Source of the DNA: an uncultured Candidatus Saccharibacteria bacterium
GTDB taxonomy: Bacteria > Patescibacteriota > WWE3 > CAZQFB01
Assembly: GCA_964592525.1 (NCBI GenBank)
Contig: CAZQFB010000004.1
Span: forward strand, 1,195 to 65,194
DNA length: 64,000 nt
Direction of reading: 5' to 3'
Every line of letters starts with the position of its first letter. Position 1 is the stretch's first letter. Of the stretch, positions 1,424 to 58,305 are shown one piece after another. The notes under the pieces are model-generated. The model saw only the letters and a list, made by a program, of their open reading frames with translations. It did no database searches and was not told where the DNA came from. Made by a program: the position numbers and the translations under genes.

Positions 1424-1469
1424 GTTGGTAGACTGCCTACCGGGTGGTCGTTTAAAAATTTTCATCTTC

Positions 1470-3647
1470 TTAAAATATCATTTTAATACCTATAAATACT
1501 GCTACCATCACAACTATTGAGAGTACCAAAGCAGCACCATTAACTCCAGCTGGAGGTATTACAGGGTTAGCAACACAGGCCAAAGGATCACTTTTTCTGG
1601 CTTCACATAAACAACCGTTTTGTGGATTATTCCAGTCACAAACTTGGGTATTGGCTGGTTCTTCTCCTACCTTTTCCACACACCCACCACTGTCACAAGC
1701 CCAGTAGGTTGGTAGGCAGTCTGGATCGGGTCCAAGATTTTCACAGACCGGGCCGGGATTGGTAATGGTTGAGACGGTGGGGTCTTCGCAATTATATGTG
1801 TCATAGTTACAGATATAACCACCTGGTGGTGGCGTTGCTTGGCAAGGTTCATCATCTCCCAGACCAGAGCAATCTGGCCCTGGGTTGGTTACGGGGGCTT
1901 GCTGACAGGTGCGGGTGGTGAGATTGCAGATGTAGTCTACAGGTCCGCCTTCTTGGCAAGGTTCATCATCTAGTGGACCAGAGCAATCTGGCCCTGGGTT
2001 GGTTACGGGAGCTTGCTGACAGGTTTGGGTGGTGAGATTGCAGATGTAGTCTACTGGCGCGCCTTCACAAATCTCCCCCACACTCGCGCCAAAGTTGGTG
2101 CAAGGTACTTCGGTGGTTATCTGCTCTACCGCTTTGTTCTCACATATTTGGTTTTCAAAACAAACGTCTCTGCTACAGACGGCTGGTTGGTTGTGGGCTA
2201 GTGCGTCGGTGTAACTGCATCGCTCTAGTCCAGCTAACGAGGGTACCGTTAGCTCTTCGGGCAGATAACAGGTTTTTTGGTAGCAGAATCCTTTACAGGC
2301 ATTAGGATCTTCAGGGTCACAGGTGCTTTTTGCTTCTGCCCCCTCTTTTTTAACGCATTGCTCTCCTTCACAGGACCAGTAGTATTCCACACACTCTTCG
2401 TTTCTACCCGTACTTGGATCATTGCCCGTAGTGTTGCAGGTTTTGTCGCCAGGTTCTAAATCGCCTCTCTTGAGGATACAGGAATTGTTATGACACACAG
2501 CGTTGACATTACATTCACTATCTTGCTCACAGTTAATAACCAACTCTCCTCGGCTTAATCTACCCCTTAAATCCTCAATAGACACATAGCTACAACTGTT
2601 GTTAGCCACACAGATGTTTTCGCGACAATCATCGGCACTGGTGCATTTGTTATTTATTTGGTTGCATTCGTCTCCCACACATTCTCTACAAGACATGCCC
2701 TCACAAATACCGTTGCTAACCACTAAAGGACAATCTTGCGGACAATTGGCATTGGTTTCACCCGGATCGCAGGTACCATTACCACAAAGCGGTTCGGTGC
2801 TAAGTTCGCAAGTACCGCCTACAGGTGTGCTGTCGCTGTAGCGCCAAATAGAGGTAATATCATTACCTTCACCAGTAATCAGCGCCCCTACGGTTGAAGT
2901 TAACTGACCCGGTATTTTACGGATCGTACATTCTTCAGTTTCTTTACTAATCTCAAGGATATCCCAAATGATCTGGAAAGAACCACAATTGGTGTTGGTC
3001 GCGCCTGTGGTGCTGGTTGTCCATAAGAAAGCTTTCTGTTCACCTGGGTTAAGGATAATTGGACCATCATCCGTTTTGATGCCTGTTTTTTGGTTGGTTG
3101 CTTGGGCACGGGCGATCTTTTCGTTGATGATTGTTTGGTTACCATTAGCGTCTAGCTTGGCGGTATCGGCATAATAAGCATAATCACAGTAGTTCCAACG
3201 TTGGTTGACCTCATCAACAGTGGGTGGGTTAGTGGTGGTAATTTCCGGCCAGCTACCAACACACAAATAATCAAAACCATAGTAAGGTGAATTAACATCC
3301 GCACTTAATTCGGCAGGAGTGCTTTGGGCGTTTTCTTCTGAACACCGGCAGGAATAAAGCTCGGCATTGATGGTTAACGTCTCCGCACTCACATTTTCCA
3401 CATCCCAGCTTAGGGTATATTGACCATGCGGGACATCATATTCTTCGTGTAGGTTATAAACCCTTAACACAGTGGGGTAACCAGTAGCAGCGTCTTCCAC
3501 ACAAGAAATGTTATAGTCCGAGTACTCGTAAGCCCCACTTCTTAACTTGGCTCTTTTTTGTGCTAGAAACACTGCCAAGGGAACGACCAGTAACATGATC
3601 AAAAGGATGATGAGCGTAAATAAATGGGTTTGTTTTTTAATCTTCAT
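1470..3647 (-). CDS. Cys-rich secreted surface protein, paralog B (725 aa), with C-terminal hydrophobic anchor / sorting-like signal
   Basis: N-terminal signal-anchor helix followed by AQKRAKLRSGA. Many Cys-rich repeats (PVDYICNLTTQTCQQAPVTNPGPDCSG appears twice; a CGNGTCDPGETNANCPQDCP mini-module). C-terminus is IPPAGVNGAALVLSIVVMVAVFIGIKMIF (motif, hydrophobic stretch, Lys, short tail). Confidence 0.75.
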   Translation of the reverse strand: MKIKKQTHLFTLIILLIMLLVVPLAVFLAQKRAKLRSGAYEYSDYNISCVEDAATGYPTVLRVYNLHEEYDVPHGQYTLSWDVENVSAETLTINAELYSCRCSEENAQSTPAELSADVNSPYYGFDYLCVGSWPEITTTNPPTVDEVNQRWNYCDYAYYADTAKLDANGNQTIINEKIARAQATNQKTGIKTDDGPIILNPGEQKAFLWTTSTTGATNTNCGSFQIIWDILEISKETEECTIRKIPGQLTSTVGALITGEGNDITSIWRYSDSTPVGGTCELSTEPLCGNGTCDPGETNANCPQDCPLVVSNGICEGMSCRECVGDECNQINNKCTSADDCRENICVANNSCSYVSIEDLRGRLSRGELVINCEQDSECNVNAVCHNNSCILKRGDLEPGDKTCNTTGNDPSTGRNEECVEYYWSCEGEQCVKKEGAEAKSTCDPEDPNACKGFCYQKTCYLPEELTVPSLAGLERCSYTDALAHNQPAVCSRDVCFENQICENKAVEQITTEVPCTNFGASVGEICEGAPVDYICNLTTQTCQQAPVTNPGPDCSGPLDDEPCQEGGPVDYICNLTTRTCQQAPVTNPGPDCSGLGDDEPCQATPPPGGYICNYDTYNCEDPTVSTITNPGPVCENLGPDPDCLPTYWACDSGGCVEKVGEEPANTQVCDWNNPQNGCLCEARKSDPLACVANPVIPPAGVNGAALVLSIVVMVAVFIGIKMIF

Positions 3648-8126: not shown

Positions 8127-8900
8127 ATGTATCTGTGCCGGGGGGATAACTTCTTAGCCGTTTCCTGTCAAGGAGCCATGATTTATCGCTGGCGGTATCG
8201 GGGAAGGGATATACTTTTTCCTCAAGATCTGCAGCCGCAGGGGAAGTTGCGAGGTGGGTTGTTTGAGGGGTTTCCTTTTTTTGGTCCTCCGCCAACAGGG
8301 ACCAACTACCCCCAACACGGGTACTTGCGTCACAGGATAGCTACTAGGCAAAGAGTAAGCTATTTTGCCGATGACACCAAGCTGATTTCTCATGTTGAGT
8401 TTGACTTTGAGGTGCCGTTTGGTGCAGATCCGTTGTATCAATGGGGTCACGTGTTGAAAGTGATGACGCGTGTGACCGAAGATGGCTTTCAGCGGAGTCT
8501 TACGCTCCGGTGGCTGCCACAGGACTTGTGGCGGGTTATTTCTCCAGAGCCTAGTGTTGGGCCTCTCACACTAGGAATCCACCCCTACTTTCACCTTCCC
8601 CACAAGCAGGCAATGGTTGGTGTGGGGAGAAGGGTGGTTGATATCTCGGCAACTTCAGAGTTGCCGGATCCACTACCTCTCACCGAAGAAGGGGTGGTTG
8701 AGGTTGATGTGCTGGGTTTGGGTCAAGTCACAATTCGGTTGGAAGGGCAACTGTGGCGTGATGGTTATGTTTGGCTGTGGCGGGATTCTGACGAGCATTT
8801 GTGTGTGGAACCAGTGATGGGGCAGCCGTGGTTGGCTAAACCAAAGGATAGAGAGCTTTTTTCCCTAGCCTATTCCATGTCTTTCACTCCTGTGGGGTGA
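8127..8900 (+). CDS. aldose 1-epimerase family protein (hexose-6-phosphate mutarotase-like)
   Basis: Motifs RGGLFEGFPFFGP, QHGYLRHR, GIHPYFHL and LCVEPVMGQPW resemble the YeaD/glucose-6-phosphate 1-epimerase family. An in-frame TGA at 8109 limits any upstream extension. Confidence 0.5.
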   Translation: MYLCRGDNFLAVSCQGAMIYRWRYRGRDILFPQDLQPQGKLRGGLFEGFPFFGPPPTGTNYPQHGYLRHRIATRQRVSYFADDTKLISHVEFDFEVPFGADPLYQWGHVLKVMTRVTEDGFQRSLTLRWLPQDLWRVISPEPSVGPLTLGIHPYFHLPHKQAMVGVGRRVVDISATSELPDPLPLTEEGVVEVDVLGLGQVTIRLEGQLWRDGYVWLWRDSDEHLCVEPVMGQPWLAKPKDRELFSLAYSMSFTPVG

Positions 8901-40757: not shown

Positions 40758-40829
40758 GCGCCCGTAGCTCAGTGGTAGAGCACGACTCTTATAAAGTCGG
40801 GGTCCCTGGTTCGATCCCAGGTGGGCGCA
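40758..40829 (+). tRNA. tRNA-Ile (anticodon UAU)
   Basis: Manual cloverleaf. Acceptor GCGCCCG/TGGGCGC, D-arm GCTC-AGTGGTA-GAGC, anticodon stem CGACT/AGTCG with loop CTTATAA (anticodon TAT), T-arm CCTGG-TTCGATC-CCAGG, discriminator A. Confidence 0.8.
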
Positions 40830-40917
40830 CAGTATAGCGGGCAGTATAAAAGTTGAGAGCGATAATTTAATTTTCACACCAGAGTACTTTAAGCAAGTAA
40901 CTCTCTAGCCTCTGGAG

Positions 40918-45755: not shown

Positions 45756-45828
45756 CGCCGGCGAGAGGAGCGGCTACCTCGTCAGGCTCATAACCTGAAG
45801 TTGCCCGGTTCGACTCCGGGGCCGGCAA
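45756..45828 (+). tRNA. initiator tRNA-fMet (anticodon CAT)
   Basis: C1:A72 mismatch (CGCCGGC/GCCGGCA). A11:U24 in D-stem (GAGG/CCTC). Anticodon stem TCAGG/CCTGA with loop CTCATAA. Close overall similarity to E. coli tRNA-fMet. Followed by CC. Confidence 0.8.
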
Positions 45829-46154
45829 CCTACTGTTGGTTGCTTTTTTAAACAGTTACTTAAGATATACCCCTTATGCTGTTGGTGGTTAGTTTTGCTT
45901 AAATGCTATTGACAGGGAATTTGTTTAGCTGTCATAGCCTCAATAGTAACGCTTGACGCATTTGGGTTAACCGAATATGTCTTTAGGGGATTGTCTGTGT
46001 GCTGCCAAAAACTTTTGCTCTTAGTATGTAACAGTGACTTGGGGGAGTTCATGACCATTATGGTAGTGTTGTTATTCGCTTAATATTAAATGCCTTTGGT
46101 CAGTAGACCTTTGCTAAGACTTGTTTTGTTGATTATAATTCCCCAGCATATCTT

Positions 46155-48956: not shown

Positions 48957-49344
48957 GAACGTTTACTCACCTTCTCTATACTTTATGCGGTCACGAGGGG
49001 GGGTTATTTTATCCCTAGATCTTCCCTCCAGACCCTCCAGTACGTCTCGAAAGCCCCCGCCGTTGCGTGTCTCATGCAATCTGGTTTACCACAGCAAGCC
49101 ATAGAAGTACCCCCTGACGGAAGCCTGGGGTCGTTCTGGGGTCCGCGGGCACAAGCCTTCAGGGTTGCTTTCCCCCCGCAATATCTACATGGGACATTAT
49201 CTTCATAATCAGCAGGAGCCTCGAACCAGAATGAGTGTACCGCTTTGGGTACCTCAATCCCCATCACCTTCATTTGTCTTTCCCTTCATTGGTTTCTCGC
49301 GGGTGGTTGTGCGAAATAATACCACATCTTGTTACAATTTGATT

Positions 49345-50238
49345 ATGAAACGATTAGTTTTAGTTGATTCCCATTCTCTTATCCATCGAGCTTATCACGC
49401 CTTGCCTAAAACATTTATCACCAAAGATGGTAAGCATACAAATGCGGTGTATGGCTACACCCGCATGCTTTTAAAGGTAATTGAGGAGCTGAGTCCCGAT
49501 TACCTAGGAGCTACCTTTGATGCTCCTGGTCCCACCTTTCGTACGGAAATGGCTCCAACATACAAGGCTCACCGACCCAAAGCAGATAGGGAACTAGTGG
49601 AGCAGTTTGATTATGTAGATGAAATTGTAGACGCTTTGGGTATTCACAGAGTGAGGATGGGGGGATATGAAGCTGACGATTTAATAGCTACCATGACGAA
49701 AAGATATGGTGATGAGATGGAGGTTATAATCGTTACCGGAGATAACGATCTGATGCAATTGGTCACTGAAAACGTGAAGGTTTATTACCCAGTGAAGGGT
49801 ATATCTCAATCCCAAATGTATGGTGTTGAGGATGTGCGCAAAAAGTTTGATCTGGAGCCCTCACAGATTGCTGATTATAAAGCCTTGAGGGGTGATCCTA
49901 GTGATAATATCCCAGGGGTGGTTGGTATTGGCGAAAAAACGGCAGTGGAGCTTCTTAAAAAGTATGGGAGTTTGGAAGGAATATACAGAAATATTGAGGA
50001 TGTAAATGGAAGGACAAAAGAATTATTAGAGGGTAAGCGTGGCGCGGCGGAGTTATCTAAAAAATTAGCTTCCCTTGAATATGAAGTGCCGGTTAAAGAA
50101 AGCCCCCGTGACCTTACTATAGATCTGGAACCAGAAAAATATATCCCCATCTTGGCTAAGTATCAGTTTTTTTCTCTATTAAAACAATTAAGCGGTGAAG
50201 GGTCGGCAGAGAACAAAGACCAATTGAGTTTGCTCTAA
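49345..50238 (+). CDS. 5'-3' exonuclease (FEN / Pol I N-terminal domain-like)
   Basis: MKRLVLVDSHSLIHRAYHAL... Conserved acidic clusters (TFDAPGPTFR, GYEADDLIAT, VTGDNDLMQL) and H3TH (GVVGIGEKTAVELL). The start at 49345 is preferred. The track's extension to 49165 has a non-homologous N-terminus. Confidence 0.8.
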   Translation: MKRLVLVDSHSLIHRAYHALPKTFITKDGKHTNAVYGYTRMLLKVIEELSPDYLGATFDAPGPTFRTEMAPTYKAHRPKADRELVEQFDYVDEIVDALGIHRVRMGGYEADDLIATMTKRYGDEMEVIIVTGDNDLMQLVTENVKVYYPVKGISQSQMYGVEDVRKKFDLEPSQIADYKALRGDPSDNIPGVVGIGEKTAVELLKKYGSLEGIYRNIEDVNGRTKELLEGKRGAAELSKKLASLEYEVPVKESPRDLTIDLEPEKYIPILAKYQFFSLLKQLSGEGSAENKDQLSLL

Positions 50239-50339
50239 AGTGCTCTTATATTTTATAACCCATAACCTAAACTGCTAGGTGATAATTAAACAGGCTGTGG
50301 CTTTTAGCTTTAAGCTGTAAGTTATGTTTTAATCGTTTT

Positions 50340-51449
50340 ATGAAAGTAGCGCTAGTGCACGATTATCTCAAGGAATTTGGAGGAGCAGAGCAGGTTCTTT
50401 TAGCTCTTGGCGAGCTTTTTCCCCATGCTCCTATCTACACGTCCTTCACTACCCCGCAGTTTCTTGATCAGCACCCAGAGTTTAAGGATAAAACCATCCG
50501 CCCCACCTTTCTGCAAAAAGTGCCTTTAGTAAAGCAGTTTTCTAAACACTATACCTTTATGTACCCGTTCGCATTTGAGCAGTTTGATCTGCGTGAGTAT
50601 GATTTGGTTATTTCGGATTCGGCTTGTTGGGCTAAGGGAGTGATCACTTCACCGCATCAGAAACACATCAGTTATATTCTGACCCCACCTCGGTTTCTGT
50701 ATCACTACACTGGTGAAACTGATCGTCGTTCACTTTGGCTATTAAAACCGTTATTAACACCTTTGGATACTTACTTACGGATTTGGGATTACCAAGCAGC
50801 GCAGCGAGCTGATTGTGTGGTGTCAATTTCGCAAACCGTGGCTAAGCGGGTACGTAAATTCTACCAACGAGATTCCGCTGTGATCTATCCGCCAGTGTTA
50901 GTGCCAACAGAGAGCCCCAGTTCGGTTAGGGGTGATTTCTATCTGGTGGTTTCACGTCTAGCCAAATATAAAAATATTGAAGTGGTGATAGCAGCAGCTA
51001 ACAGACTACGAGTACCCTTGAAAGTAGTGGGCATAGGTAGAGAAGAAAAGCGCTTGAGAGAGCTAGCTGGCAACACTGTGGAGATGTTGGGGTTTGTATC
51101 ACCAGCAGAATTAGCTAATTTGTACCGATCCTGTAAGGCATTGATTTTCCCCACCCTTGATGAGGATTTTGGCATCGTGCCTGTAGAGGCAATGGGACAT
51201 GGTGCGCCAGTGATTGCGGTTAAATCTGGTGGGGTGAGGGAAACAGTAGTGGCCGGATTATCTGGTGAGTTTTATTCTCCTGGTACTGTGGCGGAAATGG
51301 TCAACAATCTCATCACGGTGTTGGAACAATTTGATGGTAAAAAGTATCCGGCGCAGACTGTAAGTCAACAAGCAAATAGATACAGCCGTGAACGCTTTAT
51401 CAGCGAATTTAATCATTTATGTACTGTAGTGATGAAGGAGGTAATTTAG
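50340..51449 (+). CDS. glycosyltransferase family 4 (GT-B, group 1)
   Basis: C-terminal EDFGIVPVEAMGHGAPVIA (the E-x7-E-like motif of GT4). Confidence 0.75.
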   Translation: MKVALVHDYLKEFGGAEQVLLALGELFPHAPIYTSFTTPQFLDQHPEFKDKTIRPTFLQKVPLVKQFSKHYTFMYPFAFEQFDLREYDLVISDSACWAKGVITSPHQKHISYILTPPRFLYHYTGETDRRSLWLLKPLLTPLDTYLRIWDYQAAQRADCVVSISQTVAKRVRKFYQRDSAVIYPPVLVPTESPSSVRGDFYLVVSRLAKYKNIEVVIAAANRLRVPLKVVGIGREEKRLRELAGNTVEMLGFVSPAELANLYRSCKALIFPTLDEDFGIVPVEAMGHGAPVIAVKSGGVRETVVAGLSGEFYSPGTVAEMVNNLITVLEQFDGKKYPAQTVSQQANRYSRERFISEFNHLCTVVMKEVI

Positions 51450-51450
51450 C

Positions 51451-52263
51451 ATACCAGAACTACCGGAAGTGGAAACAATTCGTCAAGATTTAAACAAAGC
51501 GGTGTTAGGTGCCACTATTACTGGTTTGACTTCCAATTGGTCAAAAAAAGTAAAGCCTTCTCTTCAGGGTGTGCAGCAGAGGGTGGTGGGTAAGAAGATT
51601 ATGGGCATTGATCGCCAAGCTAAATTGCTAAGTATAGATTTGAGTGGTGGTGAGCACCTGTTGATTCATTTGAAAATGACTGGTCAGTTGCTCCTAAGAA
51701 ATCAGGAGGATAAAGCGGATAAGTATGTCCACCATATCATCCAGCTTGGGCATCGGGAATTAAGGTTTGCTGATGTCCGCAAGTTTGGTTATCTGCAGGT
51801 GGTTAACAGCGCCGAGAAAGAAAAGATCTTTGCTAGTTTTGGGTTGGATGTGTTGGTTTCTAGAGCGGACATTTCAGTATTTTGCAAAATACTGCAGAAG
51901 AAGGTGGTGCCAATAAAAACAGCACTGATGGAGCAGACTCTTATTGCTGGGGTGGGTAATATCTATGCTAATGAAGCCTTATTTTTGGCAGGGATAAATC
52001 CCCTTAGAAAGTCTAAGACCCTCTCGGAAGTTGAAGTAACAAAGCTTCTTAGCTGCCTGAAAAAAGTGTTTAAGCAAGGTCTTAAATACCGTGGGGTATC
52101 GGATAGCACTTATGTGGATCTCTATGGCAAGCAAGGTCAGTTCCAAAATCACCTTAAGGTTTATCGCAAAAGAGGTGCGCCGTGTCCCCACTGTGGCGCA
52201 AAAATCATGTACCAGAAGCTCAACGGTCGGGGTACTTATTATTGTCAGTTTTGTCAGAAATAG
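51451..52263 (+). CDS. fpg: formamidopyrimidine-DNA glycosylase (MutM/Fpg), apparent AUA start codon
   Basis: Reading frame encodes (I)PELPEVETIRQDL..., matching the Fpg N-terminus MPELPEVE with catalytic Pro2. C-terminal zinc finger CPHCGAKI...YYCQFCQ. Only ATA precedes the Pro codon, after an in-frame TAA at 51442. SD AAGGAGGT sits 8 nt upstream. The track start (GTG 51469) would delete the catalytic Pro. Confidence 0.75.
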   Translation: MPELPEVETIRQDLNKAVLGATITGLTSNWSKKVKPSLQGVQQRVVGKKIMGIDRQAKLLSIDLSGGEHLLIHLKMTGQLLLRNQEDKADKYVHHIIQLGHRELRFADVRKFGYLQVVNSAEKEKIFASFGLDVLVSRADISVFCKILQKKVVPIKTALMEQTLIAGVGNIYANEALFLAGINPLRKSKTLSEVEVTKLLSCLKKVFKQGLKYRGVSDSTYVDLYGKQGQFQNHLKVYRKRGAPCPHCGAKIMYQKLNGRGTYYCQFCQK

Positions 52264-52369
52264 CCCCACTCTTTTTATATCGCATCTAAAAAATTTAATT
52301 TAAGGGGATTTATTTTAGTCAATGGAAAGCGACAGAAAGCTTAACCAGCCAGGGCTGGGTAAATGAGAA

Positions 52370-52402
52370 GGGCGGGTCGCCTTCGGCGACCCGCCCATTT
52401 TA
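52370..52402. terminator. strong GC hairpin GGGCGGGTCGCC-ttcg-GCGACCCGCCC, bidirectional terminator-like
   Basis: Perfect 11-12-bp stem with UUCG tetraloop. Sits immediately 3' of the minus-strand ORF 52404..52934 and ~100 nt downstream of fpg. Flanked by moderately T/A-rich tracts. Confidence 0.5.
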
Positions 52403-52403
52403 G

Positions 52404-52934
52404 CTAGGCTATCCTTCTCGCCTCTTTTCTTATCGTGTCGTAAAGAGCCGAGGTGAGGTATTCCCCCCACTTCTTCTCGGTCCGGAAACCGCATGCCTTG
52501 GCGGCGTCCGCTGCGCGCCAGAAGTAGCGCAGGGCGTTTTCAACCATCTTCTTGCCAATGTCGATTTCTCGATCAGTGGCGCGCCCCTCCTGCTCTCGCG
52601 CGAGGACCCGGTCCTGCTCCCGGATGACCTCCTCTACGTACAACGCTCTCTTGACGAGCTCCAGTTGCACGTCGCTTCTGGTTATGTCTTCCGGGAGTTC
52701 CCCGAACTCCCGGAAGAAGCGGTTGCGGTTGCGAGCCTCCCTTAGCTTTCGCACCGGCCAGAAGACCTTCCCCCAATACCAGGCGGTGAAGCGGAACAGC
52801 TTCGCGCCTCCTTGTATGGCGAGCGTTTCGTTCAAGGGCTTGACACAGATATACCATATCAAGCCCAGCAACGCGGGGATCGTTGCGCCAACGCTGATGC
52901 CGAGCATCGCCACCAACATAAGTTTCCAGTCCAC
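52404..52934 (-). CDS. hypothetical membrane protein (176 aa) in GC-rich island
   Basis: Two N-terminal TM helices then a charged region. The locus is much more GC-rich than its surroundings, and many overlapping ORFs in other frames are consistent with high GC. Confidence 0.4.
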   Translation of the reverse strand: MDWKLMLVAMLGISVGATIPALLGLIWYICVKPLNETLAIQGGAKLFRFTAWYWGKVFWPVRKLREARNRNRFFREFGELPEDITRSDVQLELVKRALYVEEVIREQDRVLAREQEGRATDREIDIGKKMVENALRYFWRAADAAKACGFRTEKKWGEYLTSALYDTIRKEARRIA

Positions 52935-53316
52935 TGCACTTCTCCTTTGGGGATTCGCCCCAGAGGTGCCAGATTCTCTGGCACTACGAGCAGAGGTTTT
53001 CTAGCCCCCGCACCGCGAGATTCGCTCGCAGATGGGGGAGAAGATAACAGACAATAAACCTATAGTCAAGGAGGTGGTTTTGTACCTGGCTTTTCTATTA
53101 AAGCGGTTGATTAATTTGAGCAACTACGCTTTTGTCATTTGAATATTGCTGATATACCGCTTTGACAAATCTTTATATGGAGATAGTTAATTTTGTGCAA
53201 AGTGTCTGTACTATTTTTTGTTTATCCTAATTAGCACCAGAAAGAGTGTGACTAATTCCAGCAACAGCTTGCTACTCTTACTGGATTTCGTGGTGCTTTA
53301 CACTTACACTACGGCT

Positions 53317-54384
53317 GTGCAGATAACTTCTCTCAAACTAACTAATTTCCGCAACCATGGTGACTTAGAAATAAACTTTAAGCAAAATAATACTTACGTG
53401 GTTGGTCCTAACGCAGTTGGTAAAACAAATTTATTGGAGGCAATAGCTGTGCTGACTAATGCTAAACCAATACGTGGTTCGCTGGAGGTAGAGCTAATTA
53501 CTGCTGGTGCCGACTATACACGCGTAGAAGGTCAGATTGTGAAAGATAATAGAAGCATTCCCTTAACTTTTTACTTAGAAAGGGGTGACGGTGCTAGAGC
53601 TCGTAAAAGGGTTTGGGTTAATCAGGTGGTCAAATCACAGGTTAAGTTTGCTGGTATTTTTCAAGTGGTTATCTTTAGACCCGAACAAATTGAGGTGCTA
53701 ACCCACTCTCCTAGTTACCGTCGTAAACAGCTGGATACAATGTTTATGCAATATGATAACAGTTACTTGATGGCAAAGCGTAATTATGATCGGGTAGTTA
53801 AACAGCGGAACCGGCTTTTGGAAGCAATTAGGGAATCAGGTAGAAATCAAGACACCTTATCTTATTGGAACGATAAACTACTTGAATATGGCTTGTTGCT
53901 ACAAGGCAAGAGAGCGCATTTTCTCAATTTCTTAACTAATTACTTTAACCACCAAGCTGGGGCTGTAGATCCAGCCGGTCAAAGCTTAAAAGTTAGTTAT
54001 CACAAAAGCAGATTAACGCAGGAACATCTGTTTGAAATTCAAGATAGGGAAATTGCTGCTCGGAGGACTTTAGTTGGTCCTCACTTGGATGATCTTCTTT
54101 TCACCCTTCAGGGTCGTGCTTTGGCTGATTTTGCCTCTCGTGGCGAGCAACGGTCGACGATGTTGTTGTGGAAGATGGCGGAGTTGGATTATTTGCAGGA
54201 GCAAACTGGACATCGGCCAGTTCTTCTTCTAGATGATGTTTTTTCCGAGTTTGATGAACAGCATCGGGAGAATGTCCTCAAACTTTTAGGGCAGCAACAG
54301 ACGATTGTGACCGCTACTGATTTGGCAAGGATAGATCAGGGTCTTTTGGCAAGTGCGGAAATAATTAGTTTGGCTAATTGTTAG
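53317..54384 (+). CDS. recF: DNA replication and repair protein RecF
   Basis: LKLTNFRNH...VVGPNAVGKTNLLEAI (Walker A) and C-terminal LLLDDVFSEFD (Walker B/D-loop). The GTG at 53317 gives a RecF-like N-terminus. The track ORF extends to the ATG at 53218 with a non-homologous extension. Confidence 0.75.
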   Translation: MQITSLKLTNFRNHGDLEINFKQNNTYVVGPNAVGKTNLLEAIAVLTNAKPIRGSLEVELITAGADYTRVEGQIVKDNRSIPLTFYLERGDGARARKRVWVNQVVKSQVKFAGIFQVVIFRPEQIEVLTHSPSYRRKQLDTMFMQYDNSYLMAKRNYDRVVKQRNRLLEAIRESGRNQDTLSYWNDKLLEYGLLLQGKRAHFLNFLTNYFNHQAGAVDPAGQSLKVSYHKSRLTQEHLFEIQDREIAARRTLVGPHLDDLLFTLQGRALADFASRGEQRSTMLLWKMAELDYLQEQTGHRPVLLLDDVFSEFDEQHRENVLKLLGQQQTIVTATDLARIDQGLLASAEIISLANC

Positions 54385-54567
54385 CAAATCACGAACATTA
54401 CTAATTACTATTAGGGTCTGTTAGGCTCAACCTGCTGATATGAACACAAGGTGTGGGAGGTTCGGTCAATCCTTAACCCCCACACACCTTGTCGGTTTCT
54501 AGTTACTTGCTTAACCAAGTACTTCTTGTCTTTTCTGATTTGCTGGGGTTCAATTACCCCCAAATCC

Positions 54568-54858
54568 TTATTTGGCTTTTTGGATAGCCTTTGTCAGAGC
54601 TCTTTTGATTTCACTCGCTATCTGACGGCTAAGCTCTGAAGGGCGGTGGGTATCAATTTGATCCCCGGTGATTTTTACTCGGTTTCTCTGTAGACAAGCA
54701 CCATTTTCGGCAAAGACGGCAACTTCCACTACCAGGTTGTATTTAGCCATCAGACCCTCCTTAAGGTGGGTGTCGTATTTGGTTGATACCCTTTTGCAGG
54801 GTAAGTTGTCAATTATCTTCTGGGTATCAAAAAAGGCAGTTGCCCAATAACTGGGCAA
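54568..54858 (-). CDS. hypothetical small protein
   Basis: ORF in a GC-elevated island. The likely product starts at the internal MAKYNLVVEVAVF... (~60 aa). No confident family assignment. Confidence 0.3.
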   Translation of the reverse strand: MPSYWATAFFDTQKIIDNLPCKRVSTKYDTHLKEGLMAKYNLVVEVAVFAENGACLQRNRVKITGDQIDTHRPSELSRQIASEIKRALTKAIQKAK

Positions 54859-54873
54859 CTGCCTGGCTCTTAT

Positions 54874-55224
54874 TTATTCTGCTACATGTCCAGTGCCCTG
54901 GCATTGGGGGCACCTTAGCCATTCGTAGCCTGGCTGGGCGGTTGGGTGGTAGGTGTACCCACGTCTGGTCCAGGAGCCCTTCTTGCAGGTAGAACAGTTC
55001 CAGGGGTATTCTGCCTCCTTGTTCATGTTACTAGCACAAATAACGGCCTCCCTAAGTTGGCTAAGGCTACACAGCAACAAGCGATATAGCGCTGCGAGGT
55101 CTGTGGTAGGTACTTCGCCACTTCCAACCTTGTTTGTGTAACTTGTTAGTTGTGCCTCCAGTTCTGTTGCTTGCTGTTGAGTATCCGCGAGGACTCTCTG
55201 GAGAAGGTTAAGGTCAAGTGCCAA
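54874..55224 (-). CDS. hypothetical protein with coiled-coil N-terminus and C-terminal zinc-ribbon (CxxC...CxxC)
   Basis: CSTCKKG...CPQCQGTG cysteine pairs. Lies in the GC-elevated island. Confidence 0.35.
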   Translation of the reverse strand: MALDLNLLQRVLADTQQQATELEAQLTSYTNKVGSGEVPTTDLAALYRLLLCSLSQLREAVICASNMNKEAEYPWNCSTCKKGSWTRRGYTYHPTAQPGYEWLRCPQCQGTGHVAE

Positions 55225-55376
55225 GCTGATTCTCCTTTTATGTTGAACTCGCCAAGCGGTTGTGTCTGATGTTAATACCCGCTGCTCTTTAATGCAACTG
55301 TGGGTGATCGGTTCTTTTGTGGGTGGTTATTTAAACGGATGAGCCCCGCACTTTCCCTGAAAGTGCGGGGCTCTGG

Positions 55377-55724
55377 TCAAGGACTGATAAGGTAGGCGTA
55401 TTCTGCTCCGTAGTACGCCTCAAAATAGGCTGGAGAGATTGTCCGTAATTGATGACAATCCGGTACTGAATAAGTCACTTGCTTGCCATTGGTGTTGACC
55501 GACCGGAAACAGACAAAAGGTCCTTTCGTGATCACAAACCGCTCAAGGTTAGGTGTTATCATCACATGATTGAGGGTTTCTGGTGCCGCGAGTTCGGTTT
55601 GTAACTGTGCTTGTTGGCGCTCTTCGTATCGTGTCGCTTGTCCAAATCCGAGCATCACCATTCTGACTATAACCGTGACGACTGCGAGTGAGACTGCGAT
55701 TGCTGCAACTTCGCGCTTGCTCAT
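55377..55724 (-). CDS. hypothetical membrane-anchored protein
   Basis: A start at MSKREVAAIAVSLAVVTVIV... (TM anchor) is preferred over the track start at 55817. Confidence 0.35.
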   Translation of the reverse strand: MSKREVAAIAVSLAVVTVIVRMVMLGFGQATRYEERQQAQLQTELAAPETLNHVMITPNLERFVITKGPFVCFRSVNTNGKQVTYSVPDCHQLRTISPAYFEAYYGAEYAYLISP

Positions 55725-55909
55725 TGTGATTCTCCTGTAGCTTGAAGTGCGCAGAGTACAAGTTGAGCAGATGATACTATTATAGTTAATTAAATACAAG
55801 GGGGGTAGGAGACTCATAGTTATTAAATAAAAGGAAGAACCCAGCTCTGGTTAGCCAAAGCTGGGTTCTCGGGTAGGTTGTGCTCCGACCGTATCTCCTC
55901 CTGTAGTGA

Positions 55910-57151
55910 CTACTTGGGGGAGAGCAGGAAAGGCAGGTACACTCTTACCGGGCTGTAATAAGGATCCGGCAAGGCGTTGGGGCAGGCTCGCTGGAAAGCG
56001 ACTTGCGGACCGTTCGTGCCCCTATATACCAAATCCATCAACCCGTCCCCGTTCAGATCCGGAGCCATAAACTCGTCCTGGTCAAGCCAATAGGGCAGTG
56101 GTCCGATGTCTTCTTGGTACCACTGGCCAGTACTGTCCTCCAGCCAACTGATTGAGTAGTTATTGACGATTACCAACTCGTCCTGACCGTCACAAGTCAG
56201 ATCAATGAAGGACATTCCCACAACACCAGGGGGTATTTCTCGAAACCACGAGGGTTTCAAGTGATCCCCTTCTTGGATGAAGGTATGGATGGCAGAATCA
56301 TTGCCACCATAGGCAATGACCACATCCAGAAGACCATCCTGAACTCGCCCTTCACCTGGTCCTGGTGCACTTAAATCAACCAGATAGATGGCTCGAGGTA
56401 GACCATACCACGGTCTATCCCTCTGATAATCTACCGGTTGGTCAAAACCACCACCAGGCAGACCAGCATAGACCGAGAAAACGGGGTTCTGACCCTGACC
56501 CCACATCACCACCAGGTCGCCCAAGCCATCTCCGTTGACATCACCAAACACAATCCGGTTATCACCGGCAGGGTGGCTATACATTCTGGTTACCTTTAGC
56601 TCGTTCCGGTTTGGATCAAATCGGAATACAGCCAAGTGTACCAGTACAGACCTTGGCCAGCTGGTCACAGCCAAGCCCCCAGGAAACACGGCGAGGGCAT
56701 CGGCAGCTACATCGGCGACGGTCCCAAAAAGGTACTTGTCGGCCCGACCAGACCACCATACTTGGTACTGGTTTCCACAAAAGACAACCACGTCGTTGTG
56801 ACCGTCTTGGTTAATGTCCTCGATTCCAAGCAGGGCCTTCTCGTGGAGCATCAACTTGGTATCCATGATGCTCTGGTGATAGACGCCCTCTTGGTGATCG
56901 AAGGTATGGATCTGGACATTGCCACCAGTTCGGCTGGTGGCGACCAGGATTTCTGGTTCGGGGTCAGTGTCCATGTTACCAATGGCTATGGACTTGTCCC
57001 ATGTGGCATCCATGTTAGCTAGCAGTGTCGGTTCGGTGAACCGATCACTTGGGATCCGGGAAATTGGGTCCCTTGCCTCCACAAGAGAGGGAAGGCTCAA
57101 AAGAACCCATCCCAGAACGATTACTACTGCGAACATTTGGAGACCGCGCAT
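55910..57151 (-). CDS. secreted FG-GAP/VCBS repeat protein (integrin-alpha-like beta-propeller)
   Basis: Signal peptide (MRGLQMFAVVIVLGWVLLSLPSLVEA). Repeated Ca-binding-like DxNGDGxxDLV motifs (DINQDGHNDVVV, GDVNGDGLGDLVV, DLNGDGLMDLV, DLTCDGQDELV). GC clearly higher than the genome background. Confidence 0.65.
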   Translation of the reverse strand: MRGLQMFAVVIVLGWVLLSLPSLVEARDPISRIPSDRFTEPTLLANMDATWDKSIAIGNMDTDPEPEILVATSRTGGNVQIHTFDHQEGVYHQSIMDTKLMLHEKALLGIEDINQDGHNDVVVFCGNQYQVWWSGRADKYLFGTVADVAADALAVFPGGLAVTSWPRSVLVHLAVFRFDPNRNELKVTRMYSHPAGDNRIVFGDVNGDGLGDLVVMWGQGQNPVFSVYAGLPGGGFDQPVDYQRDRPWYGLPRAIYLVDLSAPGPGEGRVQDGLLDVVIAYGGNDSAIHTFIQEGDHLKPSWFREIPPGVVGMSFIDLTCDGQDELVIVNNYSISWLEDSTGQWYQEDIGPLPYWLDQDEFMAPDLNGDGLMDLVYRGTNGPQVAFQRACPNALPDPYYSPVRVYLPFLLSPK

Positions 57152-57258
57152 TTGCTCCTCCTGGAAGCTTAGGCCCTCAATTGGGCAAGATACCTTCGAA
57201 ACAGGCGGTATTTTATCAGAGATTATTCAGCAAAGCAAACACTATGGGTTACTAGGAT

Positions 57259-57867
57259 TCAGATGATGTTTCCAAGGAATGTTATGCGGTGGATGGGGCT
57301 GACGCCATGCCTTTGTATTGCTTGGCAATGGAAGTTTGTGCCGTAGCCTTTGTGCTTATCAAAGCCATATTGTGGGTACTGTTTATGCATTTTAAGCATG
57401 ATGCTATCTCGGGTTACTTTAGCGATAATGGAAGCAGCTGCAATGGAGGCGACGGTACGATCACCTTTAGTGATACCTCTTTGCCTAGCGTTACTTATCG
57501 GTTTTAAGGTAAAGTGGTCTATAAGGTAGAAATCAATGGGTTCCCTTAAAGCGTCACAGGCTCTTAGAAAAGCTAGCTCATTCGCTGCCCTTATGCCCAG
57601 CTCGTCTACCTCCAGGTTGGAGACTTCACCTAAACCATATTTAACGTAAGTAGTTAGTTCCGTAAACAGTAACTCGCGACGTTTTGGGGTGACTAGTTTA
57701 GAGTCTCTTAGATAGGGGTGAACCACAAAATCTCTGGGTAGTATGACCGCAGCAGCCACTAATGGACCAGCTAAAGGTCCCCGACCAGCTTCGTCTAAAC
57801 CAACGACATTAGTGAAACCCTTGTGCCACAGGATGTTTTCGGCAATTAAGGTGGGGGAGATTTTCAT
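57259..57867 (-). CDS. rnhB: ribonuclease HII
   Basis: VGLDEAGRGPLAGPLVAAAV catalytic DEAGRG motif. ~200 aa. Confidence 0.85.
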   Translation of the reverse strand: MKISPTLIAENILWHKGFTNVVGLDEAGRGPLAGPLVAAAVILPRDFVVHPYLRDSKLVTPKRRELLFTELTTYVKYGLGEVSNLEVDELGIRAANELAFLRACDALREPIDFYLIDHFTLKPISNARQRGITKGDRTVASIAAASIIAKVTRDSIMLKMHKQYPQYGFDKHKGYGTNFHCQAIQRHGVSPIHRITFLGNII

Positions 57868-58071
57868 AGCTTCAAGATAGCACAGGAGGGAGCAAAAAAA
57901 TAAGTCCCAAGACGGATAACGGCAGCTAATAGTAAGCGATCCCGCAGGACAACTTTCCAGTTCACCATCATTAAATTGGACAAAATATCCTTAATGTTAT
58001 AGGATTTCGGCAACCGAAAGGAGACGGAAATCACTACCGAACTTGAGCAGCTGGTATTTGACCCCGACCAA

Positions 58072-58305
58072 GTGCAAAGGGTACGAAAGGTCATTGCGGA
58101 TGCCTGTTTGGTTGATGGCGGAGTTGGGGGTGGAGGAGCGCTTCTGTGGTTTGGTTGGTCTGACTGCTCACGGCTTGAGCGCTTCATGCTAAGAGAGGCT
58201 ATTGAGCGAACTTTAACAGAGTTAGGGTGGAAGTATCGAACCTTGTGGTGCGAGAATGGGTTTCTGGTCACCCTCCCGTCTGTTATTCTCTACCGTGGTA
58301 TCTAG
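58072..58305 (+). CDS. hypothetical small protein (77 aa), followed by intrinsic terminator
   Basis: GTG-start ORF ending 10 nt before a + strand terminator. The open frame extends further upstream without an ATG. No family recognised. Confidence 0.25.
   Translation: MQRVRKVIADACLVDGGVGGGGALLWFGWSDCSRLERFMLREAIERTLTELGWKYRTLWCENGFLVTLPSVILYRGI

What the first reader, a model, noticed from the sequence alone, without database searches (positions are those of the whole stretch)
51435..51471. fpg appears to start at an AUA codon, with a perfect SD, overlapping the upstream stop
The Fpg reading frame encodes PELPEVETIR directly after codon ATA (51451..51453). Three codons upstream is an in-frame TAA, and no ATG/GTG/TTG is available. 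The catalytic N-terminal Pro (after Met removal) is essential in Fpg. The only alternative start (GTG 51469, used by the ORF track) deletes it. AAGGAGGT lies 8 nt upstream of ATA, and the upstream glycosyltransferase stop TAG (51447..51449) abuts it. This implies either genuine AUA initiation (rare) or a sequencing/assembly error of ATG to ATA.
Basis: seen in the sequence. Interest (0 to 1): 0.65.

Follow-up and report, generated by a model that had tools for sequence, protein, structure and literature searches.

The report
fpg gene starting at AUA
A DNA-repair gene (fpg) in an uncultured Patescibacteria genome has ATA where its ATG start codon should be; the base is real, the gene is otherwise intact, and intact fpg genes with weak start codons (ATA/ATC/ATT/ACG) turn up in many other bacteria, so it is most likely a genuine low-efficiency start.

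Summary
AAGGAGGT lies at 51435-42 and an in-frame TAA at 51442-44. The upstream glycosyltransferase stops at TAG 51447-49. ATA 51451-53 is followed directly by PELPEVETIR. The ORF is an equivalog-level Fpg that matches the profiles from residue 1. A sequencing or assembly error is unlikely, because two separate per-run Logan assemblies are identical to the window, ATA included. The gene shows no decay: it matches 69 of 73 highly conserved columns, and its protein has diverged no faster than those of ATG-start relatives. Internal ATA codons align with Ile, so there is no codon reassignment. Scans of public genomes and metagenomes found many full-length Fpg ORFs with ATA, ATC, ATT or ACG directly before PELPEVE and no canonical start available. 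These are conserved within clades and under purifying selection. None had AAG or AGG. Best reading (about 0.65): fMet-tRNA initiates at AUA at low efficiency, helped by the longest Shine-Dalgarno match I found at a candidate start of the window's larger ORFs and by coupling to the upstream stop; Met removal then exposes the catalytic Pro. Main rival (about 0.25): a very recent start-codon mutation that has silenced, or nearly silenced, the gene. The public GTG-start protein (264 aa) lacks the catalytic residues and is probably mis-annotated. This is a new member of a known kind, of moderate interest.

The parts
50224..50252 (+). Sigma-70-like promoter match (TTGAGT-17-TATATT) between the 5'-3' exonuclease gene and the GT4 gene. 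It is a candidate promoter for a GT4-fpg bicistron.
   Evidence: This is a consensus match only, and such matches are no more frequent here than in shuffles, so the evidence is weak.
50340..51449 (+). GT4-family glycosyltransferase gene (369 aa). Its last codons, ATG AAG GAG GTA ATT TAG, contain the fpg Shine-Dalgarno sequence.
   Evidence: Glycos_transf_1, 1.9e-26. The gene is absent from this position in relatives L122, L123 and L245.
51435..51442 (+). Shine-Dalgarno sequence AAGGAGGT, 8 nt upstream of ATA.
   Evidence: It is the longest SD match found at any candidate start of the 45 larger ORFs (>=110 aa) I examined in the window.
51442..51444 (+). In-frame TAA that closes the fpg frame upstream, so no N-terminal extension is possible.
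51447..51449 (+). TAG stop of the GT4 gene, 1 nt before ATA. This is a termination-reinitiation (coupling) arrangement.
51451..51453 (+). ATA, the proposed near-cognate initiation codon of fpg. It aligns with Met1 of all 119 homologs.
51451..52263 (+). fpg/mutM CDS: 270 codons plus TAG. It contains Fapy_DNA_glyco, H2TH and a C4 zinc finger.
51454..51459 (+). Codons for Pro2 and Glu3, the catalytic nucleophile and acid of Fpg/Nei enzymes.
   Evidence: The role of Pro2 is described in PMC11323726.
51469..51471 (+). GTG (Val7), used as the start by ORF callers and by the public protein P0001 (264 aa). It is probably a false start: the SD ends 26 nt upstream, and the product would lack Pro2 and Glu3.
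   Evidence: the truncated protein starts at profile position 8.
52370..52396 (.). Hairpin with a 12-bp stem (11 G-C pairs) and T-rich tails on both strands. It is a likely bidirectional terminator ending the GT4-fpg unit.
45756..45830 (+). Initiator tRNA(CAU) with C1xA72 and A11:U24. Its anticodon stem UCAGG/CCUGA is the au/GC/GC variant of the three conserved G:C pairs. This is the tRNA that would read AUA at initiation.
   Evidence: The same stem is present in relative L245. The variant is described in PMC5389676.
40758..40830 (+). tRNA-Ile(UAU), the elongator that decodes AUA as Ile. It shows that AUA is not reassigned to Met.

Best explanation
fpg here is a functional gene whose translation starts at the near-cognate codon AUA (51451-53). 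The steps below are inferred. GT4 and fpg are co-transcribed. The 8-nt SD AAGGAGGU, which lies inside the last GT4 codons, pairs with the 16S rRNA 3' end and places AUA in the P site at 8-nt spacing. Ribosomes terminating at the GT4 UAG, 1 nt upstream, can also reinitiate there. fMet-tRNAfMet (anticodon CAU) pairs with AUA with a mismatch at the third codon position. IF3 proofreading makes this inefficient: in E. coli, AUA gives a few percent of the AUG level, and more in a strong TIR. Deformylase and methionine aminopeptidase then remove fMet, which is allowed before Pro, and expose Pro as the N-terminal catalytic nucleophile. The net result is authentic Fpg made at a low level. What is shown: the sequence anatomy, that the ATA base is real, that the ORF is intact, and that near-cognate-start fpg genes persist under purifying selection in other lineages. 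What is inferred: the transcription unit, actual initiation at AUA, and the expression level.
For: (1) The anatomy is as described. NCBIfam Fpg equivalogs are passed from residue 1: NF002211 scores 258.7 bits against a cutoff of 212, and TIGR00577 scores 245.2 against 203.3. The protein aligns end to end with L. lactis Fpg structures (E 2e-48 for 4cis, 3.9e-48 for 1tdz), with the Lys of RxxK and the C4 zinc finger conserved.
(2) ATA is present in three assemblies, two of them from separate runs, with 0 mismatches over 2-3 kb.
(3) There is no decay. The protein matches 69 of 73 columns that are >=95% conserved in 119 homologs, and the 4 differences are conservative. Its mean identity to 117 outgroup Fpgs is 47.7%, against 46.8-48.5% for its ATG-start relatives, so there is no rate acceleration.
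(4) The SD is the longest found at a candidate start of the 45 larger ORFs examined, most of which have no SD at their first canonical start. The TIR is unstructured (z +0.79). GTG 51469 has no properly spaced SD.
(5) There are precedents. Of these, 36 are full-length Fpg ORFs with an upstream in-frame stop and no canonical start (6 ATA, 16 ATC, 14 ATT), from about 14 lineages. They include isolate genomes (Pacificimonas flava, Algimonas arctica) and the CPR group Saccharibacteria.
(6) In a gammaproteobacterial clade (Ca. Azotimanducaceae/Pseudomonadales) the ATA start is kept in 4 species while dS is >1.2 or saturated and dN is 0.08-0.13 (pN/pS 0.145).
(7) Control: in front of PELPEVE, ACG gives 30 full-length Fpg ORFs with no canonical start, AAG gives 0 of 45 hits and AGG gives 0 of 15. 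This is what a functional filter would produce. Whether AAG and AGG really do not initiate rests on my recollection of the IF3 literature.
(8) Literature. AUA, AUC, AUU and CUG give 1-2% of AUG in E. coli (10.1101/063800). AUA gave 7.5% in another construct, the T4 rIIB AUG>AUA mutant kept about 15% of translation at 25 C, and in an optimised TIR in vitro AUA mRNA behaved like AUG mRNA (PMC5499595). Weaker start codons tend to be associated with stronger SDs (PMC5622118).
Against: There is no expression or proteomic data. ATA is seen in this one strain only. The nearest relatives available (50-56% Fpg identity) all use ATG, so the age of the ATA and selection on it cannot be measured in this lineage. 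Intactness is equally expected if the mutation is very recent. At least one ATA-start fpg elsewhere (Moorella mulderi MAG, L079) is also frameshifted, so an ATA can be a step toward gene loss. The SD 8-mer is not enriched window-wide, and it could predate the ATA. The 16S 3' end of this organism was not seen. The ATH survey (genome contigs) and the AVG control (metagenome contigs) used different, truncated scans, and most ACG hits belong to one clade.
Confidence: 0.65

Rival explanations
1. A real but recent ATG>ATA mutation has effectively silenced fpg. On this reading the gene is a null, or nearly null, allele at the first step of pseudogenisation in a reduced CPR genome. The SD and the intact ORF are simply inherited from the ATG ancestor.
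For: ATA is unique to this strain among the relatives available, and the syntenic relatives use ATG. AUA gives only 1-2% of AUG in E. coli reporters. The ATA-start fpg of a Moorella MAG (L079) is also frameshifted, and L024 keeps only a 46-codon remnant. No close relatives exist in the collections to test for selection.
Against: There is no second lesion. The protein matches 69 of 73 conserved columns and shows no rate acceleration. ATA-start fpg genes are kept under purifying selection elsewhere. Only initiation-competent near-cognates appear in front of PELPEVE across bacteria. Even this reading implies some residual initiation at AUA, so it differs from the best explanation in degree rather than kind.
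Confidence: 0.25
2. The ATA is a sequencing or assembly error, and the true codon is ATG.
For: A single-base difference from ATG. The genome is a metagenome-assembled one.
Against: Two Logan per-run assemblies (SRR11845623, SRR11845625) and the window agree at every base over 49036-52309 and 50327-52360. The same kind of codon recurs in isolate genomes and closed long-read MAG chromosomes elsewhere. Raw reads were not inspected, and the NCBI MAG may derive from the same runs.
Confidence: 0.04
3. Translation starts at GTG 51469, as in the public annotation, giving a 264-aa protein without the catalytic Pro and Glu. This would be a non-glycosylase paralog or a DNA-binding remnant.
For: GTG 51469 is the first canonical start in the frame. 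The 264-aa protein is the one deposited (P0001).
Against: The SD ends 26 nt upstream of the GTG and nothing SD-like lies at a proper spacing. The six codons before the GTG encode exactly (M)PELPE as in every homolog. The truncated protein starts at profile position 8. Pro2 is the essential nucleophile of Fpg/Nei enzymes (PMC11323726). No homolog among the 120 listed starts there.
Confidence: 0.04
4. AUA is reassigned to Met in this organism, or a special tRNA reads it cognately at initiation.
For: None beyond the ATA itself. The organism decodes AUA in an unusual way, with tRNA-Ile(UAU).
Against: Internal ATA codons sit at Ile or other aliphatic positions: FtsH codon 284 is Ile in 76 of 76 homologs, and Fpg codons 147 and 182 are Ile in 100 and 112 of 119. 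A tRNA-Ile(UAU) gene is present. The initiator tRNA has a normal CAU anticodon.
Confidence: 0.01

Closest known systems
infC (IF3) AUU start codon of E. coli and many other bacteria
   Same: A natural AUH near-cognate start in an SD-led TIR, read by fMet-tRNA and limited by IF3 proofreading (PMC5499595).
   Different: The infC AUU is widely conserved and is the sensor of an autoregulatory loop, because IF3 represses its own non-canonical start. Nothing suggests feedback for fpg. Here the codon is AUA and is seen in a single strain.
Phage T4 rIIB AUG>AUA start-codon mutant, and engineered AUA starts in E. coli reporters
   Same: The same codon change. They show that AUA supports initiation with Met at reduced efficiency: about 15% at 25 C and temperature-sensitive for rIIB, 7.5% in another construct, and 1-2% in reporters.
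   Different: Those are laboratory mutants in E. coli. This is a natural allele in an uncultured Patescibacteria bacterium whose translation apparatus is uncharacterised.
Near-cognate-start fpg genes found here (ATC in Trueperaceae; ATA/ATT/ATC in Ca. Azotimanducaceae/Pseudomonadales; ATT in Gaiellales; ATC/ATT in Bacteriovoracaceae; ATT/ATA/ATC in Caulobacterales; ATT in Saccharibacteria; an ACG clade in metagenome contigs)
   Same: The same gene and the same position: the codon directly before PELPEVE, with an in-frame stop upstream and no canonical start. Several also lie next to or overlap the upstream gene's stop codon.
   Different: In those lineages the codon is conserved across species and selection could be measured (pN/pS 0.15-0.48). 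In the window's lineage it could not. About half of them lack a strong SD, whereas the window has a perfect 8-mer.
Canonical Fpg/MutM (E. coli, L. lactis, G. stearothermophilus)
   Same: The same domain architecture and catalytic residues, with equivalog-level scores.
   Different: Only the initiation codon and the operon context differ. Here fpg is the downstream cistron of a glycosyltransferase gene.

Membership tests
Fpg/MutM (Fpg/Nei superfamily; NCBIfam NF002211 / TIGR00577) | A whole-protein score above the curated equivalog cutoff, covering the profile from position 1. | tested here: met
   NF002211 scores 258.7 bits (cutoff 212) over residues 1-270 and profile 1-274. TIGR00577 scores 245.2 (cutoff 203.3).
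Fpg/MutM (Fpg/Nei superfamily; NCBIfam NF002211 / TIGR00577) | Pro immediately after the initiator Met (the nucleophile once Met is removed), followed by Glu. | tested here: met
   The codons after ATA are CCA GAA, which read Pro-Glu. This is met only if translation starts at ATA. The role of Pro2 is described in PMC11323726.
Fpg/MutM (Fpg/Nei superfamily; NCBIfam NF002211 / TIGR00577) | An H2TH DNA-binding domain and a C-terminal C4 zinc finger. | tested here: met
   PF06831 at 2.2e-22 and PF06827 at 1e-4. The motif CPHC-x16-CQFC aligns with the zinc finger of L. lactis Fpg.
Fpg/MutM (Fpg/Nei superfamily; NCBIfam NF002211 / TIGR00577) | Glycosylase / AP-lyase activity on 8-oxoG or Fapy lesions. 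| not testable with these tools
   This needs a biochemical assay of the recombinant protein.
Natural near-cognate (AUH) bacterial start codons | No canonical start is available in frame that is compatible with the conserved N-terminus. | tested here: met
   TAA lies 3 codons upstream, and there is no ATG, GTG or TTG before Val7.
Natural near-cognate (AUH) bacterial start codons | A ribosome-binding signal at functional spacing. | tested here: met
   AAGGAGGT with an 8-nt gap. The TIR is unstructured. The organism's anti-SD sequence was not seen.
Natural near-cognate (AUH) bacterial start codons | The codon is real in the DNA, not an error. | tested here: met
   Three identical assemblies, from two separate runs. 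Raw reads were not inspected.
Natural near-cognate (AUH) bacterial start codons | The non-canonical codon is conserved in related genomes, with purifying selection on the ORF. | tested here: inconclusive
   This is not met among the available relatives, which use ATG at 50-56% identity. No close relatives exist in the collections. It is met for other lineages with AUH-start fpg.
Natural near-cognate (AUH) bacterial start codons | The protein N-terminus or the initiation site is verified experimentally. | not testable with these tools
   This needs N-terminomics, TIS profiling or reporter fusions.

The most novel reading that the evidence does not exclude
fpg/mutM repeatedly acquires and then keeps near-cognate start codons (AUA/AUC/AUU/ACG, never AAG/AGG) in roughly 14 lineages from several phyla, under purifying selection. 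This may be because a very low Fpg dosage is favoured, or because downstream-cistron reinitiation tolerates such codons. Since the catalytic Pro fixes the start site unambiguously, fpg would serve as a natural cross-phylum reporter of which non-AUG codons real ribosomes accept. The window would be its AUA example in Patescibacteria, which arose when a glycosyltransferase insertion turned a stand-alone ATG-start fpg (possibly leaderless) into an SD-led downstream cistron.
Probability: 0.45. Interest if true: 0.55.

Novelty: new member of a known kind. Interest (0 to 1): 0.4.

Why it matters
There are three practical points. First, the deposited protein (264 aa, GTG start) lacks the catalytic Pro and Glu. 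Gene callers that allow only ATG, GTG and TTG will mis-annotate this gene and dozens of similar fpg genes, or call them truncated. Second, it is a clean natural case where the start codon can be assigned from enzymology alone, which is useful for benchmarking start-site prediction and for asking how permissive CPR ribosomes are. Third, the cross-lineage pattern is a small piece of comparative evidence that near-cognate initiation is used stably in nature: AUH and ACG are present, conserved and under purifying selection, while AAG and AGG are absent. I found no paper on this for fpg/mutM in the searchable library. It does not reveal a new mechanism.

Tried and rejected
(1) Sister-genome comparison. 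The search for related loci on metagenome contigs found no relative. The closest Fpg proteins anywhere are only 50-56% identical, so neither dN/dS nor the age of the ATA could be measured for this lineage.

(2) Codon reassignment (AUA read as Met). Rejected, because internal ATA codons align with Ile and a tRNA-Ile(UAU) gene is present.

(3) A link between the au/GC/GC initiator tRNA and relaxed start-codon choice. The variant is real, but it is shared with relative L245, whose fpg uses ATG. It is also a known natural variant in alpha-proteobacteria and some mycoplasmas. It is therefore not specific to this ATA, and I keep it only as a speculation.

(4) Translational coupling as a general rule for near-cognate fpg starts. 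My upstream-ORF scan was noisy and mixed: overlap or a gap of 5 nt or less in about one third, and none detected in about half. I make no general claim.

(5) RNA structure at the TIR. Nothing beyond shuffles.

(6) An Rfam scan of the window. It found only three tRNAs and no rRNA, so the anti-SD sequence could not be read.

(7) Cluster look-up for the organism name. It returned no name. The taxon was inferred from FtsH hits instead.

(8) Literature searches for fpg/mutM non-canonical starts. No relevant paper was found.

(9) I did not test whether other genes in the window use near-cognate starts by comparing with homologs. The SD-based scan showed no other convincing candidate.
Full report
**1. 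Observation**

AAGGAGGT lies at 51435-51442. TAA at 51442-51444 is in the fpg frame. TAG at 51447-51449 ends a 369-aa GT4 glycosyltransferase ORF (50340..51449; Pfam Glycos_transf_1, 1.9e-26). After one more base comes ATA at 51451-51453, followed by CCA GAA CTA CCG GAA GTG GAA ACA ATT CGT, which reads PELPEVETIR.

Between the TAA and GTG 51469 (Val7) there is no ATG, GTG or TTG. That is why the mechanical ORF list starts at the GTG.

The degenerate PELPEVE pattern occurs once in the window and never in 100 shuffles. The 8-mer AAGGAGGT is not enriched window-wide: there are 4 copies against 2.33 expected. Its significance therefore lies only in its position, 8 nt before this codon.

**2. What the gene is**

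Started at ATA, the 270-aa product passes the NCBIfam Fpg equivalog cutoffs and covers both profiles from position 1. NF002211 scores 258.7 bits (cutoff 212) and TIGR00577 scores 245.2 (cutoff 203.3). The GTG-started version begins at profile position 8.

Pfam finds Fapy_DNA_glyco (from residue 2, aligned to profile position 2), H2TH and the Fpg zinc finger. The protein aligns end to end with the Lactococcus lactis Fpg structures 4cis (E 2e-48) and 1tdz (E 3.9e-48). The RxxK lysine and the CxxC-x16-CxxC zinc finger are conserved.

The nearest homologs were read in full, about 75 sequences. All contain MPELPEVE (one has MPELPEIE), either at the called start or a few residues after it.

Pro2 is the Schiff-base nucleophile of Fpg/Nei enzymes, as stated for Nei2 and the family in PMC11323726. 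A protein that started at Val7 would therefore be catalytically dead.

**3. Is the ATA real?**

The GTG-called 264-aa protein (P0001) is on record from NCBI (a 66,067-bp contig) and from two Logan assemblies of separate runs, SRR11845623 and SRR11845625.

Both Logan contigs are 100% identical to the window, over 49036-52309 and 50327-52360 respectively, ATA included. A random sequencing or assembly error is therefore unlikely. I did not see raw reads.

**4. Is the gene decaying?**

The protein matches 69 of the 73 alignment columns that are >=95% conserved among 119 homologs. The four differences are conservative (Q/R, D/E, F/L, F/Y). This is within the range of bona fide ATG-start homologs.

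Its mean identity to 117 outgroup Fpgs is 47.7%. Its three closest ATG-start relatives score 46.8-48.5%, so its protein has not evolved faster. If the ATA inactivated the gene, it did so very recently.

**5. Organism and context**

FtsH, encoded 3 kb upstream, has its best named hits in Patescibacteria: Microgenomates group, Daviesbacteria and Curtissbacteria.

The local gene order is FtsH, 5'-3' exonuclease, GT4, fpg, terminator hairpin (52370-52396), an unknown minus-strand gene, then a RecF-like gene.

In relatives the exonuclease...fpg linkage is conserved, but the slot between the two genes varies. It is empty in L122 and L123. It holds a PadR-like gene plus three ORFs in L245. It holds GT4 here.

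In all three relatives fpg starts with ATG and has no SD:
- L122: tttaaactaatcccATG
- L245: tatacttccttcATG
- L123: gtaggcATG

I examined the 45 larger ORFs (>=110 aa) of the window. At most of them the first canonical start also lacks an SD and is preceded by AT-rich elements resembling a -10 box. fpg's AAGGAGGT is the longest SD match found at any candidate start of these ORFs. The TIR is unstructured.

My inference is that insertion of GT4 turned fpg into a downstream cistron that depends on an SD and on coupling to the upstream stop.

**6. No reassignment**

Internal ATA codons align with Ile or other aliphatic residues. FtsH codon 284 is Ile in 76 of 76 homologs. Fpg codons 147 and 182 are Ile in 100 and 112 of 119 homologs. 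The only ATA that aligns with Met is fpg codon 1.

The window carries a tRNA-Ile(UAU) gene and an initiator tRNA(CAU). The initiator has C1xA72 and A11:U24, and its anticodon stem is the au/GC/GC variant.

That variant is a known natural one (PMC5389676). It is shared with L245, whose fpg uses ATG. It therefore does not explain this ATA specifically.

**7. Precedents elsewhere**

I scanned one genome per GTDB species for ATH-CCN-GAR-YTN-CCN-GAR-GTN-GA.

Of these, 65 are complete ORFs of 240-330 codons. In 36 of them an in-frame stop lies upstream with no canonical start in between: 6 ATA, 16 ATC and 14 ATT.

They come from about 14 lineages:
- Trueperaceae/Deinococcota
- Ca. Azotimanducaceae/Pseudomonadales
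- Halieaceae
- Steroidobacteraceae
- Caulobacterales
- Pacificimonas
- Gaiellales
- Acidimicrobiales and other Actinomycetota
- Bacteriovoracaceae
- Bacillota
- Acidobacteriota
- Saccharibacteria

These include isolate genomes (Pacificimonas flava JLT2015, Algimonas arctica KCTC 32513) and closed long-read MAG chromosomes. Two Yanofskybacteria (CPR) loci, L028 and L089, also have ATT before PELPEVE, but in-frame canonical codons lie 7-12 codons upstream, so they are outside the 36.

The codon is conserved within clades while neighbouring synonymous sites vary. In the gammaproteobacterial ATA clade (L029, L061, L091, L107), dN is 0.08-0.13, dS is >1.2 or saturated, and mean pN/pS is 0.145. Other clades give pN/pS of 0.23-0.48. 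Within two clades the codon wanders among ATA, ATT and ATC.

**8. Control**

Full-length Fpg ORFs with no canonical start upstream were found as follows:

| Codon | Full-length Fpg, no canonical start |
|---|---|
| ACG | 30 (several clades; one large soil clade dominates) |
| AAG | 0 of 45 hits |
| AGG | 0 of 15 hits |

ATC and ATT are transversion products of ATG, as AAG and AGG are. Mutation bias therefore does not explain the contrast. The pattern fits a functional filter: only codons able to initiate are retained. That AAG and AGG initiate very poorly is my recollection of the IF3-discrimination literature, not something I checked here.

There are caveats. The two scans used different collections, both were truncated, and clade structure reduces the number of independent events.

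**9. Mechanism**

The literature I retrieved shows that AUA can initiate with Met in E. coli:
- 1-2% of AUG in reporters (bioRxiv 10.1101/063800)
- 7.5% in a murein-hydrolase construct (PMC5499595)
- about 15% at 25 C, temperature-sensitive, in the T4 rIIB AUG>AUA mutant (PMC5499595)
- AUG-like behaviour in an optimised TIR in vitro (PMC5499595)

Weaker start codons also tend to be associated with stronger SDs (PMC5622118).

I therefore propose the following. Initiation at AUA is SD-led and coupled to termination, and uses fMet-tRNAfMet. It is inefficient because of IF3 proofreading. fMet is then removed to expose Pro1.

Transcription as a GT4-fpg unit is inferred from three things: the 1-nt intergenic gap, a promoter-like match at 50224-50252, and the terminator at 52370-52396.

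**10. Rivals**

- **Recent silencing mutation (0.25).** This cannot be excluded. ATA is known from one strain only, and one ATA-start fpg elsewhere (Moorella MAG, L079) is also frameshifted.
- **Sequencing error (0.04).** Disfavoured by the three identical assemblies.
- **GTG start (0.04).** The SD is 26 nt away and the catalytic residues would be lost.
- **Reassignment (0.01).** Refuted.

**11. Verdict**

The phenomenon, near-cognate bacterial start codons, is known, so this is a new member of a known kind. The public GTG-start annotation is probably wrong.

The by-product is more interesting than the single case: fpg recurrently carries conserved AUH or ACG starts across bacteria. I found no paper describing this. 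It still needs an untruncated, phylogeny-aware count.

Noticed in passing
window 40758-40830 (also L245 2613-2685): A tRNA-Ile with anticodon UAU. From memory, this way of decoding AUA is uncommon in bacteria, which usually use a lysidine-modified CAU tRNA. It is conserved in the syntenic relative.
   Followed up: partly
window 45756-45830 (also L245 about 8558-8629, minus strand): An initiator tRNA(CAU) with C1xA72, A11:U24 and anticodon stem UCAGG/CCUGA, which is the au/GC/GC variant of the three conserved G:C pairs. It folds as a clean cloverleaf but falls below Rfam's tRNA gathering score; its best match is tRNA-Sec at 27.9 bits. The same stem is present in L245.
   Followed up: partly
window-wide gene starts, e.g. 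10057, 10509, 12227, 12811, 19333, 45054, 50340, 58454: Most genes have no Shine-Dalgarno sequence. Instead they have an AT-rich element resembling a -10 box (TAAACT, TAAATT, TAATCT, TAGAAT) about 6-10 nt before the ATG. This suggests leaderless or very short-leader mRNAs in this Patescibacteria lineage. The relatives' fpg genes (L122, L245) look the same.
   Followed up: no
window 50239-51450, compared with L122 1229-1237, L123 1458-1600 and L245 13805-16495: The slot between the 5'-3' exonuclease gene and fpg is variable. It holds a GT4 glycosyltransferase here, a PadR-like gene plus three ORFs in L245, and nothing in L122 or L123.
   Followed up: partly
window 52300-58300: Both Logan contigs end at 52309 and 52360, just before the strong bidirectional hairpin at 52370-52396. 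The following 6 kb has higher GC (0.46-0.49) and mostly minus-strand genes of mixed content: unknown proteins, an FG-GAP repeat protein, RNase HII and a RecF-like gene on the plus strand. Several of the minus-strand genes have good SDs. Part of this region may be strain-variable or acquired.
   Followed up: no
L022, L039, L043, L048, L050, L062, L097 and other Trueperaceae/Deinococcota loci: fpg starts at a conserved ATC that lies inside the 3' end of an upstream gene in another frame. That gene's TGA stop lies inside fpg, a 17-nt overlap, and a GAAGGGA/GAGGGGA motif sits 8-9 nt upstream. This is a family-wide non-canonical start.
   Followed up: partly
L129, L130, L132, L141, L144, L151, L158 and others (metagenome contigs): A large clade, probably from soil metagenomes, of 271-codon Fpg ORFs (TPELPEVETTRRGIAPALLE...) with ACG in place of ATG. 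They usually lie 20-25 nt after an upstream gene ending ...IK*, and have no evident SD.
   Followed up: partly
L079 (Moorella mulderi MAG, DRZV01000088.1), about 908-1722, minus strand: An ATA-start fpg that is also frameshifted near codon 167. This is either a pseudogene or an assembly error.
   Followed up: partly
window 49165-50238; P0003 / L123 1601-1660: Two start-site artefacts. The mechanical ORF for the 5'-3' exonuclease starts at TTG 49165, but Pfam coverage and the 297-aa length called in L001 and in relatives fit ATG 49345. The called protein P0003 carries a 19-aa extension in front of MPELPEVE that would bury the catalytic Pro, so it is probably an over-extended call.
   Followed up: partly
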